Shown here in pieces: positions 14,259 through 18,741 of a stretch of 64,000 bases of DNA. Source of the stretch: SAR324 cluster bacterium (lineage in GTDB: Bacteria; SAR324; NAC60-12). Under the pieces are notes generated by a model. The model saw nothing but the letters and a program-made list of their open reading frames with translations. It searched no databases and was not told the DNA's origin. The position numbers and the translations under genes are program-made. Each line of letters opens with the position of its first letter. Positions within the stretch are counted from its first letter, which is position 1. The stretch lies in the NCBI GenBank assembly GCA_028281495.1, contig JANQJU010000095.1, positions 25,206 to 89,205 on the forward strand. The letters run 5' to 3'.

Positions 14259-17200
14259 TTATCCATGGTTGGGCGGGATATTGAGATCAGGAATCTTTAA
14301 AGCATTGCCTATGAAGACCACATTAAACGTAGTAATTTCTATTTTATATCGCTCCATCAATTCTTTACTCCTTGGATGCAATCGAATTTTCCAAGTGGCA
14401 TATAGGGGCGGCCAATTGGTATCGGCCCGAAAGCTATCTTTTCCCGATTGTCGCTTTGACCGTGTGATTTCCCCATTGATAACCTTCACTTCAGACAAAT
14501 ACCGCGTCGAATCTGTACTCTGAAAGTATCGTAGCTTGGTTGGAATTTGATCTGAAATTGGGTCAATGGAATTCTCATCATTTGGATTCACGATCACTTT
14601 ATCCGCAACCAAATTTTGGCAATGGGTTTCTATATCAATCTCCAATTTTTTATCTGACAGAGATTTACTATTGCTTAGCTCCAAATCAATATCCACATGC
14701 TCAACTCGAAAGAAATATAACTTTCTGGTCTCTTCAAAAAATGAAGTATCTGACATTAAATCCAACTCAACAGTTTCTTGATTATTCAGTTGGTCTATTA
14801 GAGCTTGTTTTTCAATAGAGTAGATGACTTTTTCGCCCTTTATCATGCTTTTGGTCATTGGATAGTTTCTGTTGATGATTTTACTTGTCGTCAGATCTGA
14901 CAATTGGTTCTTAAGTTCAAAGGCCTTTTTTTGAATATCAATGAGTGCAATATCCAGTTCAGATTTGCGCAAGAATCGATAGAAAGAGGCGTTCTCGTAA
15001 TCAAGAATCAGTTGAGTAAGCTCCCGATACAAATCAATTTTTGATGTTAAAGTCATTAAGCCCAGTGCCTCGACCTGGGCCTGTTCGGCTTTACTTTCGT
15101 CCTCGAATTCCTTGGCAAGCTCCTTTTGCTGGCGGAGATTTTCACATTTCAACAATTCCACTTGGAGTTTGATTTCCAAATCAAAACGCTTCTCCATCAA
15201 ATTAAAGCCACCTTCGGCCTCGAAACTCATCTGTTCATAGGCTCGCAAAAAGTTTCTTGCACTTTCCTCATTGTAGATATTGTGGATACGGTCTCTTATT
15301 TCGGCATGATTTGTTTTCAATCTCACCAACCAAGCTTTTGCTTCACTCAATTGTTTGATGGGGTCCGGTTCCAGTTCAAGGTCATTTCGTAAACCTGAAT
15401 TTGCGAACAGACTGGAATCGGTTTGATCCAAATCTATGGAAATATTGTGTGCTGCGGACTTCAATTCATCCAAAAGGGGCAAGTATTGGTTTTTATAGTT
15501 TGCTAGCGCGATGAATGCGTTGGCCAATTTTTGCCCGTCGATAGTGCCTTGATGAAAGTCTTGCAAATTTCGTTTAAGCCACATTCTAGACCTATTTTTT
15601 TTCCAACCCTTGTAAAATGATTCCTTCAATTTTTTGCCATAAGGATTGTCCTTGAATGATTTTTCAATATCATCTTTAAGTGTTTCAATTTCTTGGGGCC
15701 ATTTATCGTTTATGTTTTCATTCAATAGATTGAGTTGCTTTATTTCCTTATCGAGTCTCTGTCTATCTTGTGCTTGGTTCTCTCCAGAAGCATTGTCCAT
15801 TTCCTCCTTTTTTTGACGAATGGTGTTTTCGATCTCGGGATATTTTTGTTGGTTAGCTGCGATCCAATCTTCCAACTGTTGTTTTCTTTCTGCGTTTTTA
15901 CCTAGGTTATCAGAATACATTTTGTTGAAGCCTTGGCTGTATTCGTCCCCTTTTTTTGAAATGATTGTTGATGAAATTTTTTCAAATGATTCAACGATGC
16001 TTTTTGTATCCTCATCTTGTATTAGAGCTTTAATACCAACTCCAACGCCACCCACAACAGCCCCCAAAAATAGAGGTGCCGTTGCTCCACCCGTCGCAAT
16101 GGTGACCACTAGGCTTCCCAACATACCAGCAACAGACTCAATGGCATTGAATATCAATTCTTGCCTTCGCTTTTTTTCGAGAGCATCCAATTGGATTTCA
16201 AGTACGTGAAGCAAATACGGTGTGGAATCTCCCAAGTCTTGGATAGCTAGAGACACTTTTTTGATTTCTCTGTCAGTTTGACCAATTGTCTTCTTATAAA
16301 GTTCAATAGTTTCTTGAGAACTATTCCTGGTATTCACTTGAATCAGGTGATGATACTCAGCATTTTTTTTGAACGATTTTAAGAGGGTTGTTAAATTATC
16401 GAGGTTTGTTTCTTTTGATTCCAAAATTTGGATATTTTCGGAAACAAAAATTAGCTTTTTGTAATACTCATCTACATAATACTCTGGAATAGGGTATGGA
16501 TTATCTCTATCTCCGGTGGCTAAAAACTTTTTAACAATGCCGTCCAGGAAGTTCTTCACTAGTATTTTTTGAGAGTTCAAATTTTCGTTTTCAAATTTAC
16601 ATGAACTCAACCAATTGACAATAGATTGTGCTTCTAAATAGTATTTTGACAGTAACAATTCATTGATTAAATCCGATTGAGCGATCACAAATCGTTCTAA
16701 ATTTGGATGTTTCCGCCAAAGCTTTTGGTCTGTTCCAAAGTAGTGAGGGTACAAAAAAAGGGGTTTTTTCAGTGAATAATCTCTAGAAGCGAGTCGTTGT
16801 TCTTCACTAAAATTTCTTGCTGCGTTGATTGTTTGCGTTGAATTTTTTTCAACTTTGTGAAGACTACCTTCACCACTGTACCAAACCTTGAATGAGTAGA
16901 TTGGAGCGCTTTTATTGGATTTAGATAATTGAATATAAGAGTGATCCTTGGTTTCTACTTTGCTTAGTTGGGTAAGTTTAGAGTCAGCATCTATTTTGCT
17001 ATTTGAATGATATATATTCTGATAAGTTATTTGTAACCCGCTATATTCATCCAAACAGAATAGTTGATTAGGATCTTCATCATCAGGAATTACAAAAATT
17101 TGTCGCGCAACAATAGTTAAGCTCGTGCTGACTAAGTTCCGTAGCCATGTGTTCTTGGAGCTTTTGTCTATCAATAGAGTGTCACAGATAATAAACACAT

Positions 17201-17495
17201 TGAGTAAACAGGGTATGTCAGTTCGATCAATTGGATCTCTTTGTTGGTCTGTATGAGTATTTTTTTTTAGTTGGTACTGATTGTATAGCTTATTCAGGAT
17301 ATCTTGTTGCTTTGCAAAACTAAAAATCCATTGCTGAGCTACAAATGTTGTTGCCGTACAATACTCTTGATCAATTTGTCTTGTATGATCGTCATTGCCA
17401 GTTACTTCTTCTGGAATAAAACCATGTCTGTCTAACCAGAATTGATAGTCATCTAGAGTATCGAATTGAAGTGGATCAAGAATTTTTGTTTGCAT
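14259..17495 (-). CDS. Hypothetical 1078 aa protein with no recognised domain. It has a central glycine-zipper TM hairpin (GSLVVTIATGGATAPLFLGAVVGGVGVGIKAL) and extensive coiled coil in the C-terminal half. AT-rich gene.
   Basis: Long ORF whose start lies 20 nt inside the end of the upstream gene (translational coupling). Codon usage is AT-rich compared with the flanking DNA. Confidence 0.6.
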   Translation of the reverse strand: MQTKILDPLQFDTLDDYQFWLDRHGFIPEEVTGNDDHTRQIDQEYCTATTFVAQQWIFSFAKQQDILNKLYNQYQLKKNTHTDQQRDPIDRTDIPCLLNVFIICDTLLIDKSSKNTWLRNLVSTSLTIVARQIFVIPDDEDPNQLFCLDEYSGLQITYQNIYHSNSKIDADSKLTQLSKVETKDHSYIQLSKSNKSAPIYSFKVWYSGEGSLHKVEKNSTQTINAARNFSEEQRLASRDYSLKKPLFLYPHYFGTDQKLWRKHPNLERFVIAQSDLINELLLSKYYLEAQSIVNWLSSCKFENENLNSQKILVKNFLDGIVKKFLATGDRDNPYPIPEYYVDEYYKKLIFVSENIQILESKETNLDNLTTLLKSFKKNAEYHHLIQVNTRNSSQETIELYKKTIGQTDREIKKVSLAIQDLGDSTPYLLHVLEIQLDALEKKRRQELIFNAIESVAGMLGSLVVTIATGGATAPLFLGAVVGGVGVGIKALIQDEDTKSIVESFEKISSTIISKKGDEYSQGFNKMYSDNLGKNAERKQQLEDWIAANQQKYPEIENTIRQKKEEMDNASGENQAQDRQRLDKEIKQLNLLNENINDKWPQEIETLKDDIEKSFKDNPYGKKLKESFYKGWKKNRSRMWLKRNLQDFHQGTIDGQKLANAFIALANYKNQYLPLLDELKSAAHNISIDLDQTDSSLFANSGLRNDLELEPDPIKQLSEAKAWLVRLKTNHAEIRDRIHNIYNEESARNFLRAYEQMSFEAEGGFNLMEKRFDLEIKLQVELLKCENLRQQKELAKEFEDESKAEQAQVEALGLMTLTSKIDLYRELTQLILDYENASFYRFLRKSELDIALIDIQKKAFELKNQLSDLTTSKIINRNYPMTKSMIKGEKVIYSIEKQALIDQLNNQETVELDLMSDTSFFEETRKLYFFRVEHVDIDLELSNSKSLSDKKLEIDIETHCQNLVADKVIVNPNDENSIDPISDQIPTKLRYFQSTDSTRYLSEVKVINGEITRSKRQSGKDSFRADTNWPPLYATWKIRLHPRSKELMERYKIEITTFNVVFIGNALKIPDLNIPPNHG

Positions 17496-18741
17496 CAGAC
17501 TCCTTGTTTGTAACAGCGTTATCTAAATCGTCTAAAAAAACAAAAAGTGTTTCAAGCCGGGCCTCAACGAATCGAATGAGATGGAAATTGTCCCACATAA
17601 AGGCTTCGATCTCTTGTGTACTGAAACTATTCGTGCCTCTTATATGTTGTAAGTGTTCCTCAAGACTGATTCGGGTGCTGACAATCCAATCTTTGCCGCT
17701 CGTTTTGCTGCTCTTTACCTCCTCTTCAACATCATACCACTTATAAAAATTGTTGAGTTTGGTAATTAAATTTTTCAGTGAAGCAATATGGGTCTGATAG
17801 GTTTCCATAAAATCTTGGCAACTTTGATACCAACAAATGGTGAAGCTATTTACAAAGAATTTGTTTTCGGCTTCGTCCAACCCTGCGATCATGTTGTCAC
17901 ACATTCTTTGAAAATAAAAAGGGATGTTCCAATGGCCCGCTTCTTTGCGCTTTCGAATATCGGCCTTTTTTTCTTGGAAATTAAACTTAAGTGAATTGAG
18001 TGAGAAGTCGGATTTTTCCAAAACTATTTCTTTCTTAAACTTTCTCTCATAATCGTCACCATTATCAAAGAAACCTTTAGCTTCATGGTCGCCCAAGAAA
18101 TAATATACTTTGAGACTATCTATATAGGATGTTGGTTGAAGATTATCGTTGATTATTGTCAACATTTTATCGTTTTCACCTTGGAAATCTTGTTCGATTT
18201 TAATCAATGATTTCTGAATTCTGTCTAATTTATCTTTTATAAATTTTATCAATTCGATTAGTTGATCGATTTTGAATACGACTTCTGATTGGCTAAAAGT
18301 CCCTGGGTTTTCAAGCTGTTCTTTAAAATATTTGATTGTTTCATTAATTGTTTCTTTTGGTTGAGGATGCTTCTCACTGTCTCCGAACCTTAGTTCATAA
18401 AAATCGTTTTTTAGGTTTCTTAATCCACCTTCCTCAAGTTTTTCTCTAGATATAGAGTCAAAAGTATTGATGGATTTGATTAAATCCAGATAGTCCATTC
18501 TTTCGGAAACAAAGTGGATTTGATCATAACAATGTTGAAAGATACGATCTTGACTAGAGGGGGCAATTAAATGAGATTTGTTTTCTACCCAAGCTGGCGA
18601 ATTTTTAATCCACTCTTCGATTTGTTTTCTTGTGTATGGTAACGCAAAATTGAATTTAGCTTTTTCAGATTTAGCCGCAGGTAAACCGGCAAGAGTTTTT
18701 AACGAGTCATATTCTTTTTGTGTAATGCCACTAACACACAT
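17476..18741 (-). CDS. Hypothetical 421 aa protein with no recognised domain. First gene of the AT-rich two-gene operon.
   Basis: Long AT-rich ORF on the same strand, overlapping the downstream gene. Confidence 0.55.
   Translation of the reverse strand: MCVSGITQKEYDSLKTLAGLPAAKSEKAKFNFALPYTRKQIEEWIKNSPAWVENKSHLIAPSSQDRIFQHCYDQIHFVSERMDYLDLIKSINTFDSISREKLEEGGLRNLKNDFYELRFGDSEKHPQPKETINETIKYFKEQLENPGTFSQSEVVFKIDQLIELIKFIKDKLDRIQKSLIKIEQDFQGENDKMLTIINDNLQPTSYIDSLKVYYFLGDHEAKGFFDNGDDYERKFKKEIVLEKSDFSLNSLKFNFQEKKADIRKRKEAGHWNIPFYFQRMCDNMIAGLDEAENKFFVNSFTICWYQSCQDFMETYQTHIASLKNLITKLNNFYKWYDVEEEVKSSKTSGKDWIVSTRISLEEHLQHIRGTNSFSTQEIEAFMWDNFHLIRFVEARLETLFVFLDDLDNAVTNKESDANKNS

What the first reader, a model, noticed from the sequence alone, without database searches (positions are those of the whole stretch)
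14259..18741. AT-rich two-gene operon (421 aa + 1078 aa, no known domains) between TA loci and gene remnants: candidate novel defence or abortive-infection system
There are two translationally coupled genes (20-nt overlap) on the minus strand. Their AT content is clearly higher than the flanking DNA. I recognise no catalytic or binding motif in either protein. The 1078 aa protein has a single glycine-zipper-like membrane hairpin (GSLVVTIATGGATAPLFLGAVVGGVGVGIKAL) between a large N-terminal globular region and a long coiled-coil C-terminal half. The island is bracketed by an intact GNAT/DUF1778 toxin-antitoxin pair on one side and by truncated trpF and CYTH genes plus a BlaI regulon on the other. 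That setting is a typical defence-island context with insertion scars. The membrane hairpin plus coiled coil suggests a membrane-disrupting effector regulated by the smaller partner.
Basis: partly seen in the sequence, partly recalled or inferred. Interest (0 to 1): 0.8.

Follow-up and report, generated by a model that had tools for sequence, protein, structure and literature searches.

The report
Orphan two-gene operon, membrane-hairpin protein
Two intact, overlapping genes on a patch of foreign, AT-rich DNA encode proteins with no detectable relative in any database searched; the larger one probably inserts into a membrane through one glycine-rich helical hairpin, but nothing found here shows that the pair defends against phages.

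Summary
ORF A (17476-18741, minus strand, 421 aa) and ORF B (14259-17495, minus strand, 1078 aa) overlap by 20 nt, and an AAGGAG ribosome-binding site sits 4 nt before B's ATG. Their GC is 0.35-0.37, against 0.45-0.50 for core genes. ORFs this long cannot arise by chance. Neither protein matches Pfam, NCBIfam, PADLOC, PHROGs or PDB sequences. B has no relative among 1.84 billion representatives in an exhaustive HMMER search. A has none in the word-indexed search of 5.8 billion clusters. The single-sequence AlphaFold models are poor (pLDDT 35 and 46), so the fold searches are uninformative. B's only hydrophobic element is a Gly/Ala-rich hairpin at aa ~450-494. The "long coiled coil" is not confirmed. 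The insertion scars are real: an IS1634 transposase remnant, a trpF remnant and a split 156-aa gene. The "defence island" claim is weak: no island neighbour hits PADLOC, and the known defence genes lie 19 kb or more away. The host lineage is itself poorly sampled. My best reading is a horizontally acquired, hairpin-anchored, membrane-acting effector with a soluble partner. Whether it is an abortive-infection system, a toxin or a scaffold cannot be decided in silico. Interest is modest.

The parts
17476..18741 (-). ORF A: 421 aa, acidic (pI 5.5), no hydrophobic segment, no signal peptide, predicted all-alpha. Sequence orphan.
   Evidence: No hits.
14259..17495 (-). ORF B: 1078 aa, sequence orphan. 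Rough layout from a low-confidence model: aa 1-220 mixed, 220-430 helical, ~446-494 hydrophobic hairpin, 495-870 long helices, ~900-1078 beta-rich.
   Evidence: No hits.
17476..17505 (-). Coupling junction: Shine-Dalgarno AAGGAG (17500-17505), 4-nt spacer, B start ATG (17493-17495), A stop TGA (17476-17478). The overlap is 20 nt.
   Evidence: Read directly.
16014..16160 (-). Codes for B aa 446-494: AIESVAGMLGSLVVTIATGG-ATAP-LFLGAVVGGVGVGIKALI. Two ~20-residue Gly/Ala-rich hydrophobic helices joined by a very short turn. KKRR precedes them (aa 441-444) and QDEDTK follows.
   Evidence: (GxxxG at 478 and 483).
13923..14192 (-). C-terminal remnant of an IS1634-family transposase, 67 nt downstream of B's stop (insertion or rearrangement scar).
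   Evidence: tblastn matches to annotated IS1634/ISSpu7 transposases, E down to 2e-13, about 50% identity over aa 13-76.
18855..19188 (-). Split remnant (an N-terminal fragment and a C-terminal fragment in different frames) of a ~156-aa gene, between A's start and the trpF remnant. GC is host-like (0.48). It must contain or abut the A-B promoter.
   Evidence: There is no Pfam CYTH hit.
19185..19415 (-). trpF (PRAI) remnant: only the last ~40 residues of the domain.
   Evidence: PF00697, profile positions 154-192 of 193, E 5.5e-7.
13034..13821 (-). Context only: an intact TacA antitoxin / GNAT TacT-type toxin pair downstream of the IS remnant.

Best explanation
A and B form an intact, translationally coupled operon acquired horizontally from an AT-rich, unsampled gene pool. 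It was dropped between an IS1634 remnant and the decayed host genes trpF and a 156-aa gene.

Inferred mechanism:
- B has no signal peptide, so it stays in the producer.
- B inserts its single Gly-zipper helical hairpin (aa ~450-494) into the cytoplasmic membrane. Both large domains (aa 1-445 and 495-1078) then sit on the cytoplasmic side.
- A is a soluble, acidic, helical protein made in step with B. It binds B as a partner that holds it inactive, chaperones it or senses a trigger.
- The pair belongs to the accessory 'conflict' gene pool as a membrane-acting toxin/effector module. Oligomerisation of the glycine-zipper hairpins would perturb or permeabilise the membrane.

Shown: the genes are real, coupled, foreign and orphan, and there is one marginally hydrophobic hairpin.
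Inferred: membrane insertion and topology, the A-B interaction, the toxic or effector role, and its trigger.
For: - The ORFs are real. The longest open frame is 1087 codons against at most 193 in shuffles, and codon-position GC is 0.46/0.30/0.36.
- Coupling: 20-nt overlap plus AAGGAG.
- Foreign origin: GC and GC3. Codon-usage (RSCU) correlation with island genes is 0.57-0.71, against 0.07-0.40 with core genes. The IS1634 remnant and gene remnants flank the operon.
- The two long ORFs stay intact in a stretch where at least five neighbouring genes have decayed. That argues for recent arrival or selection (inference).
- There is a single hydrophobic hairpin with GxxxG motifs and a 2-4-residue turn, and neither protein has an N-terminal hydrophobic signal.
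- The only family models that come up for the hairpin region are both pore formers or translocators: RTX N-terminal domain (10.2 bits) and SseC (11.9 bits). Both are far below threshold.
- No catalytic motif is present (P-loop, HExxH, GxSxG and others).
- The BlaI-type operators (TACAnnTGTA) lie only at 19587 and 21238, so A-B is not part of the adjacent BlaI regulon.
Against: - Nothing positive links the pair to toxicity or conflict.
- There are no homologs, so no conservation, co-occurrence or selection test is possible.
- The structure models are unreliable (pLDDT 35 and 46) and the fold searches give no hit with E < 0.05.
- The hairpin is only marginally hydrophobic (crude insertion energy about +3 kcal/mol). 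It could instead be buried in a soluble fold, as in secreted pore-forming toxins.
- No immunity-like small membrane gene is present.
- The sub-threshold RTX and SseC matches are probably driven by composition.
- The host lineage is so poorly sampled (the nearest TelA relative is 31% identical) that orphan status alone says little.
Confidence: 0.35

Rival explanations
1. Anti-phage abortive-infection or defence system. A senses infection and releases B, which depolarises the host membrane.
For: - A two-gene coupled operon on foreign DNA next to a TacAT pair and an IS remnant.
- The window as a whole carries type I-E cas genes, a TIR-pentapeptide protein and a PD-T4-6-like kinase.
- Membrane effectors are common in abortive infection (my knowledge).
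Against: - A and B have no PADLOC hit, and none of the seven island neighbours has one.
- The known defence genes lie 19-42 kb away in normal-GC DNA.
- There is not one homolog among 1.84 billion representatives, whereas defence families are usually widely disseminated.
- No recognisable sensor or enzymatic domain is present.
Confidence: 0.15
2. Exported toxin or effector acting on another cell's membrane. This would be either a bi-component alpha-helical pore-forming toxin (ClyA/XaxAB-like logic) or a hairpin effector inserted into a host membrane (Inc or T3SS-translocator-like logic). A would be the co-subunit or chaperone.
For: - The hairpin is marginally hydrophobic and Gly/Ala/Thr-rich, and it is flanked by long helices.
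- There are two adjacent helical components without signal peptides, as in ClyA and XaxAB (my knowledge).
- ClyA-family structures (AhlC, XaxB, ClyA, AhlB) recur among A's non-significant Foldseek matches.
- Sub-threshold SseC and RTX matches fall on the hairpin.
- The same window encodes a MACPF protein.
Against: - All of these similarities are below significance (E >= 0.05, TM <= 0.25, 10-12 bits against cut-offs of 27-30).
- B is about three times the size of ClyA-family components.
- The window holds no secretion-system gene.
- The organism and its lifestyle are unknown.
Confidence: 0.15
3. Structural or scaffold protein of a degraded mobile element, or a membrane-tethered cytoskeletal or remodelling protein (tape-measure-like, conjugation or partition scaffold, dynamin-like without a GTPase). 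In this reading it has no toxic role.
For: - B is long and mostly helical, with a central Gly-rich hydrophobic segment, as in many tape-measure proteins and hairpin-anchored scaffolds (my knowledge).
- The surrounding DNA is decayed and mosaic.
Against: - There is no PHROG or Pfam tape-measure hit and no phage, plasmid or viral-contig match.
- There are no phage or conjugation genes within 12 kb.
- B has no P-loop.
- A 421-aa upstream partner does not resemble a tail-assembly chaperone.
Confidence: 0.15
4. Non-functional relic: ORFs that are still open only because they arrived recently, and that are not expressed or are decaying.
For: - The neighbourhood is full of pseudogenes: an IS remnant, trpF, the split 156-aa gene, a frameshifted SDR and a truncated KptA.
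- No convincing promoter stands out above the shuffle expectation.
- The sequence has been seen in only one study (two sibling sequencing runs).
Against: - There are 4.5 kb of uninterrupted reading frame in 36%-GC DNA.
- The Shine-Dalgarno site and overlap are preserved.
- The codon-position GC pattern is typical of coding sequence.
Confidence: 0.08

Closest known systems
ClyA-family bi-/tripartite alpha-helical pore-forming toxins (ClyA, XaxAB/YaxAB, AhlABC, Hbl/Nhe)
   Same: Adjacent co-expressed genes for all-alpha proteins. One component carries a ~40-residue Gly/Ala-rich hydrophobic hairpin between long helices. There is no signal peptide, as in ClyA and XaxAB (my knowledge). A's size (421 aa) is typical of the family.
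   Different: No sequence or HMM match. The Foldseek matches are non-significant (E 0.2-2, TM <= 0.25) and come from a poor model. B is 1078 aa, with an extra ~445-aa N-terminal region and a beta-rich C-terminal domain. A and B are not detectable paralogs.
T3SS hydrophobic translocators (SseC/IpaB/YopB family) and chlamydial Inc-type hairpin effectors
   Same: A central bilobed hydrophobic hairpin flanked by helical regions. The protein is orphan-like, AT-rich and fast-evolving. The upstream gene could be a chaperone or partner.
   Different: The SseC model scores 11.9 bits against a cut-off of 30.2. No secretion apparatus is seen in the 64 kb. A is far larger than class-II chaperones. The lifestyle of the organism is unknown.
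Two-gene abortive-infection modules with a membrane effector (for example RexAB-type logic, or TM effectors of CBASS, Pycsar or retrons)
   Same: A cytosolic partner plus a membrane-inserting protein on mobile DNA next to toxin-antitoxin genes.
   Different: No PADLOC model matches. Those effectors are usually small and multi-pass, or they are coupled to a recognisable sensor or enzyme. Here there is no recognisable sensor and no homolog at all.
RTX-toxin or colicin-type pore-forming hydrophobic domains (including large T6SS effectors such as VasX, ~1085 aa; my knowledge)
   Same: A large protein whose only hydrophobic element is a helical hairpin rich in Gly, Ala and Val.
   Different: RTX_N scores 10.2 bits against a cut-off of 26.8, and there is no colicin-domain hit. 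The hairpin is central rather than C-terminal. There is no immunity gene, no T1SS or T6SS genes and no RTX repeats.
Phage tape-measure proteins
   Same: Length, helicity and a central Gly-rich hydrophobic segment.
   Different: No PHROG, Pfam or phage-genome match, and no phage genes nearby.

Membership tests
Known anti-phage defence systems (PADLOC-DB v2.0) | A protein matches a defence-system HMM | tested here: not met
   no family for A or B, even at E <= 1.
Known anti-phage defence systems (PADLOC-DB v2.0) | Embedded among known defence genes (defence island) | tested here: not met
   none of the seven island neighbours hits PADLOC. The nearest PADLOC or Cas hits are at 36.6, 55.1 and 56.6 kb. 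Only a TacAT pair is adjacent.
Known anti-phage defence systems (PADLOC-DB v2.0) | Protects against phage when expressed | not testable with these tools
   Needs plaque or efficiency-of-plating assays.
ClyA-family alpha-pore-forming toxins | Sequence or profile similarity to the family (Pfam-A models) | tested here: not met
   no such family at E <= 1 (whole proteins) or E <= 10 (fragments of B).
ClyA-family alpha-pore-forming toxins | Elongated helical bundle with a hydrophobic head or tongue (fold) | tested here: inconclusive
   The models have pLDDT 46 (A) and 35 (B). AhlC, XaxB and ClyA appear only at E 0.2-2 with TM <= 0.25.
ClyA-family alpha-pore-forming toxins | Components of ~300-450 aa encoded side by side | tested here: not met
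   The genes are adjacent and A is 421 aa, but B is 1078 aa.
T3SS translocators (SseC/IpaB/YopB, PF04888) | Profile match above the gathering score | tested here: not met
   11.9 bits against a cut-off of 30.2 (E 0.17), over the hairpin region only.
RTX toxins (N-terminal hydrophobic domain PF02382) | Profile match above the gathering score | tested here: not met
   10.2 bits against a cut-off of 26.8 (E 0.56).
Inc-type hairpin effectors | Bilobed hydrophobic domain of ~40-60 aa | tested here: met
   aa ~446-494, two ~20-residue lobes with a short GGATAP turn.
Inc-type hairpin effectors | The producer has a T3SS and an intracellular lifestyle | not testable with these tools
   Only 64 kb is available. 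The organism is unresolved, and no secretion genes are in the window.
Phage tape-measure proteins | Match to tape-measure families, and neighbouring tail genes | tested here: not met
   (only phrog_17774, of unknown function, E 0.056); no phage match. The neighbours are TacAT, an IS remnant and the BlaI regulon.
Bacterial dynamin-like / mitofusin-like proteins | GTPase P-loop (GxxxxGK[ST]) | tested here: not met
   no P-loop in A or B. No dynamin family.
BlaI regulon (the neighbouring genes) | A TACAnnTGTA operator upstream of the operon | tested here: not met
   operators only at 19587 (before blaI) and 21238 (before the PF00144 gene). None lies in 18742-19586.

The most novel reading that the evidence does not exclude
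A-B is the founding, so far unique, member of an unrecognised two-component conflict system. A large cytoplasm-facing protein would be anchored by one glycine-zipper hairpin and oligomerise into a membrane lesion when its soluble partner A detects a trigger (phage or another invader). Neither the sensor nor the effector would be related to any described defence or toxin family.
Probability: 0.15. Interest if true: 0.65.

Novelty: new variant of a known kind. Interest (0 to 1): 0.3.

Why it matters
If the pair were shown to be a membrane-acting defence or toxin module, it would add a family with no sequence link to anything known. It would also give an example of a 1078-aa effector that relies on a single glycine-zipper hairpin. 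As it stands, its main value is as a clean case of a long, intact orphan operon: 4.5 kb with no relative among about 15 billion predicted proteins, in a poorly sampled lineage. It shows the limit of context-based 'defence island' calls when no homologs exist for guilt by association.

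Tried and rejected
1. Homology searches, all empty or sub-threshold:
- Pfam, NCBIfam, PADLOC, PHROGs and PDB sequences, on whole proteins and on five fragments of B.
- The word-indexed search of 5.8 billion clusters, for A and for B.
- Exhaustive phmmer of B against 1.84 billion representatives.
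- IMG/VR, JGI metagenomes for A, tblastn against phages and plasmids, and megablast of the 12.5-kb block.

2. Structure. The single-sequence AlphaFold2 models were poor. Foldseek against PDB gave only non-significant long-helix matches. I do not use them as evidence.

3. Synteny and taxonomy. The TelA and Cas3 scans of GTDB species genomes found no close relative. TelA's nearest homolog is 31% identical. The run accessions appear in no paper. Rfam and tRNA scans were empty. The organism remains unresolved.

4. Paralogy and repeats. A and B are unrelated to each other, and there are no internal repeats or window paralogs.

5. Flanking repeats and att-like sites. Only short, chance-level matches turned up.

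6. Promoter and terminator scans are at the shuffle expectation.

7. Specific hypotheses rejected: tape-measure protein, dynamin-like protein and membership of the BlaI regulon.

8. A canonical long coiled coil is not supported.

9. The crude insertion-energy scale also failed to flag the multi-pass CPBP protein. I therefore use it only qualitatively.

Full report
**1. The observation**

- The ORF listing finds a 421-aa ORF at 17476-18741(-) (A) and a 1078-aa ORF at 14259-17495(-) (B).
- On the minus strand, A ends AAA AAT TCT TGA at 17476-17478. B's ATG is at 17493-17495, preceded by AAGGAG (17500-17505) and a 4-nt spacer. The 20-nt overlap and the ribosome-binding site inside A's 3' end are real.
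- The frames are not chance. The longest open frame in the region is 1087 codons, against a mean of 100 and a maximum of 193 in 300 shuffles. B's other five frames hold 51-98 stops. Codon-position GC is 0.46/0.30/0.36.
- GC is 0.348 (A) and 0.371 (B), with GC3 of 0.34 and 0.36. Core genes of the window are at 0.45-0.51.
- At 400-nt resolution the A-B block is 0.31-0.42. It is bounded by an IS remnant (0.41-0.42) on one side and by host-like remnants (0.45-0.48) on the other.
- The whole stretch from 13.0 to 25.2 kb is below host GC. It is a mosaic of TacAT, A-B, BlaI/M56/PF00144, a CPBP protease and a membrane LytTR protein.
- Codon usage (RSCU) of A and B correlates with the other island genes (0.57-0.71) much better than with core genes (0.07-0.40).

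**2. The proteins**

- Neither protein has a significant hit in Pfam, NCBIfam, PADLOC, PHROGs or PDB sequences. Five overlapping fragments of B give none either.
- The word-indexed search of 5.8 billion clusters returns only the query for both proteins.
- Exhaustive phmmer of B against 1.84 billion 50%-identity representatives also returns only B itself.
- Viral contigs, JGI metagenomes (A only), and phage and plasmid records give nothing.
- Exactly these proteins are on record only in two sibling sequencing runs and one NCBI assembly. The contigs are 100% identical to the window.
- A and B are not paralogs, have no internal repeats and have no paralog in the window.
- Motif scans find no P-loop, HExxH, GxSxG, CxxC or lipobox at the N-terminus, and no signal-peptide-like N-terminus (and direct reading).
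- B's only hydrophobic element is aa ~446-494: AIESVAGMLGSLVVTIATGG-ATAP-LFLGAVVGGVGVGIKALI. It has GxxxG motifs, KKRR just before it and QDEDTK after it. It is only marginally hydrophobic.
- A has no hydrophobic segment. It is acidic (pI 5.5) and shows strong alpha-helical amphipathic periodicity.
- Single-sequence AlphaFold2 gave pLDDT 46 (A) and 35 (B). I use these models only for a rough secondary-structure layout.
- Foldseek against PDB gave no hit below E = 0.05. ClyA-family toxins recur among A's non-significant matches, but with TM <= 0.25. That is a lead, not evidence.
- Hydrophobic periodicity does not support a continuous heptad register over aa 495-870. Only aa 574-648 shows one (z = 3.4). 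The 'long coiled coil' is therefore unconfirmed.

**3. The surroundings**

- The ORF at 13923-14192, 67 nt downstream of B, is a C-terminal remnant of an IS1634-family transposase.
- Upstream of A lie two fragments in different frames (18979-19188 and 18855-18989) of a gene whose full-length, 156-aa relatives occur on Nocardioides and Streptomyces plasmids. Pfam does not call these CYTH.
- Next comes the last ~40 residues of trpF.
- These remnants have host-like GC, so A-B looks like a separate insertion into decaying host DNA.
- The divergent BlaI operon has cop-box/BlaI-type palindromes only at 19587 and 21238. A-B is therefore not part of that regulon.
- PADLOC finds nothing in the seven other island genes.
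- Known defence-type genes do exist in the window, but far away and in normal-GC DNA: a kinase-AAA-TPR protein (36.6 kb), a TIR-pentapeptide protein (55.1 kb) and type I-E cas3/cse1/cas7 (56.6-62.3 kb).
- 'Insertion scars' is confirmed. 'Typical defence island' is not.

**4. The host**

- No close relative could be fetched.
- TelA, in normal-GC DNA next to the island, has its nearest homolog at 31% identity.
- Two scans of 185,579 species genomes found no close relative.
- The lineage is therefore poorly sampled, which lowers the weight of 'orphan' as a sign of something extraordinary.

**5. Mechanism**

Shown: a real, coupled, foreign, orphan operon, and one hairpin as the sole hydrophobic element of a large, mostly helical protein.

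Inferred:
- With no export signal, B most simply inserts its hairpin into the producer's inner membrane, with both domains in the cytoplasm.
- A is its stoichiometric soluble partner.
- The location on scarred mobile DNA points to an accessory conflict function that acts on membranes.

I give this composite reading 0.35.

Rivals:
- Defence or abortive infection specifically: 0.15.
- Exported pore-former or effector: 0.15.
- Non-toxic scaffold or mobile-element structural protein: 0.15.
- Relic: 0.08.
- The remainder is 'something else'.

**6. Comparison and novelty**

- The architecture resembles hairpin-based membrane-inserting proteins (ClyA-family toxins, SseC/IpaB translocators, Inc proteins, RTX and colicin hydrophobic domains).
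- Every membership test by sequence failed, and the test by fold is inconclusive.
- By sequence it is a new family. By kind it is at most a new variant of hairpin membrane effectors, and that is not demonstrated.
- Interest is modest (0.3). Long intact orphans are uncommon, but there is no testable mechanistic link without experiments or better structure prediction.

Noticed in passing
window 56587-63773 (+): A type I-E CRISPR-Cas operon: Cas3 (953 bits to PRK09694), Cse1/CasA, Cas7 (CT1975-like) and further cas ORFs. No CRISPR array was looked for.
   Followed up: partly
window 55095-56492 (-): A pentapeptide-repeat protein with a C-terminal TIR domain. It gives weak ThsB-like and PDC-S66 PADLOC hits and has low GC (0.40). 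It lies just upstream of the cas operon.
   Followed up: partly
window 36603-40337 (-): A 1244-aa Ser/Thr kinase + AAA_16/NACHT-like ATPase + TPR protein (STAND-like). Its kinase domain hits PADLOC PD-T4-6 models (E 2e-36).
   Followed up: partly
window 28742-32852 (-): A MACPF-domain protein (30855-32852) sits next to a GH30-like endo-beta-1,6-glucanase (28742-30739). This is a bacterial perforin-like protein in the same window as the orphan hairpin protein.
   Followed up: no
window 19587-19596 and 21238-21247: Two TACAnnTGTA palindromes (BlaI/CopY-type operators), one before blaI and one before the PF00144 beta-lactamase-family lipoprotein gene. The M56 protein (379 aa) shows only the protease domain and no penicillin-binding sensor domain.
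   Followed up: partly
window 25468-26499: A short-chain dehydrogenase split by a frameshift (25468-25818 and 25830-26261). Its 3' end is overlapped by an orphan TacA-type antitoxin gene (26209-26499, minus strand) with no toxin partner.
   Followed up: partly
window 6937-7468 (+): A probable toxin-antitoxin pair: a UPF0175 antitoxin-like ORF followed by a short PIN-like ORF (weak hit), in a low-GC dip (0.41).
   Followed up: no
window 52773-53195 (+): A truncated KptA/Tpt1 RNA 2'-phosphotransferase: only the first half of the domain is matched.
   Followed up: no
window 379-5121 (+): A 1580-aa protein whose only recognisable part is a non-specific DNA/RNA endonuclease domain (aa ~1078-1196). 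The rest is unassigned.
   Followed up: no
window 13352-13370 (inside the GNAT toxin gene); loci L001, L005, L006: Independent Logan assemblies of two runs all break at the same ~19-nt stretch. L005 and L006 end at ~13370 and L001 starts at 13352. This suggests an assembly-graph branch (strain variation or a repeat) at the left edge of the low-GC block. Logan contigs here are short in general, so it may mean little.
   Followed up: partly
window 8297-12898 (+): A four-gene cluster: a fused solute-binding + vWA protein, an XpaC-like (Halogen_Hydrol) protein, a 364-aa protein with no family, and TelA. TelA's nearest database relative is only 31% identical, which indicates a very poorly sampled lineage.
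   Followed up: partly
window 22836-25023: A CPBP (Rce1-like/Abi) intramembrane protease and a membrane-anchored LytTR protein (GC 0.35) are divergently arranged at the right end of the low-GC block. This pairing often accompanies bacteriocin or immunity loci (my knowledge), but no bacteriocin gene was identified.
   Followed up: no
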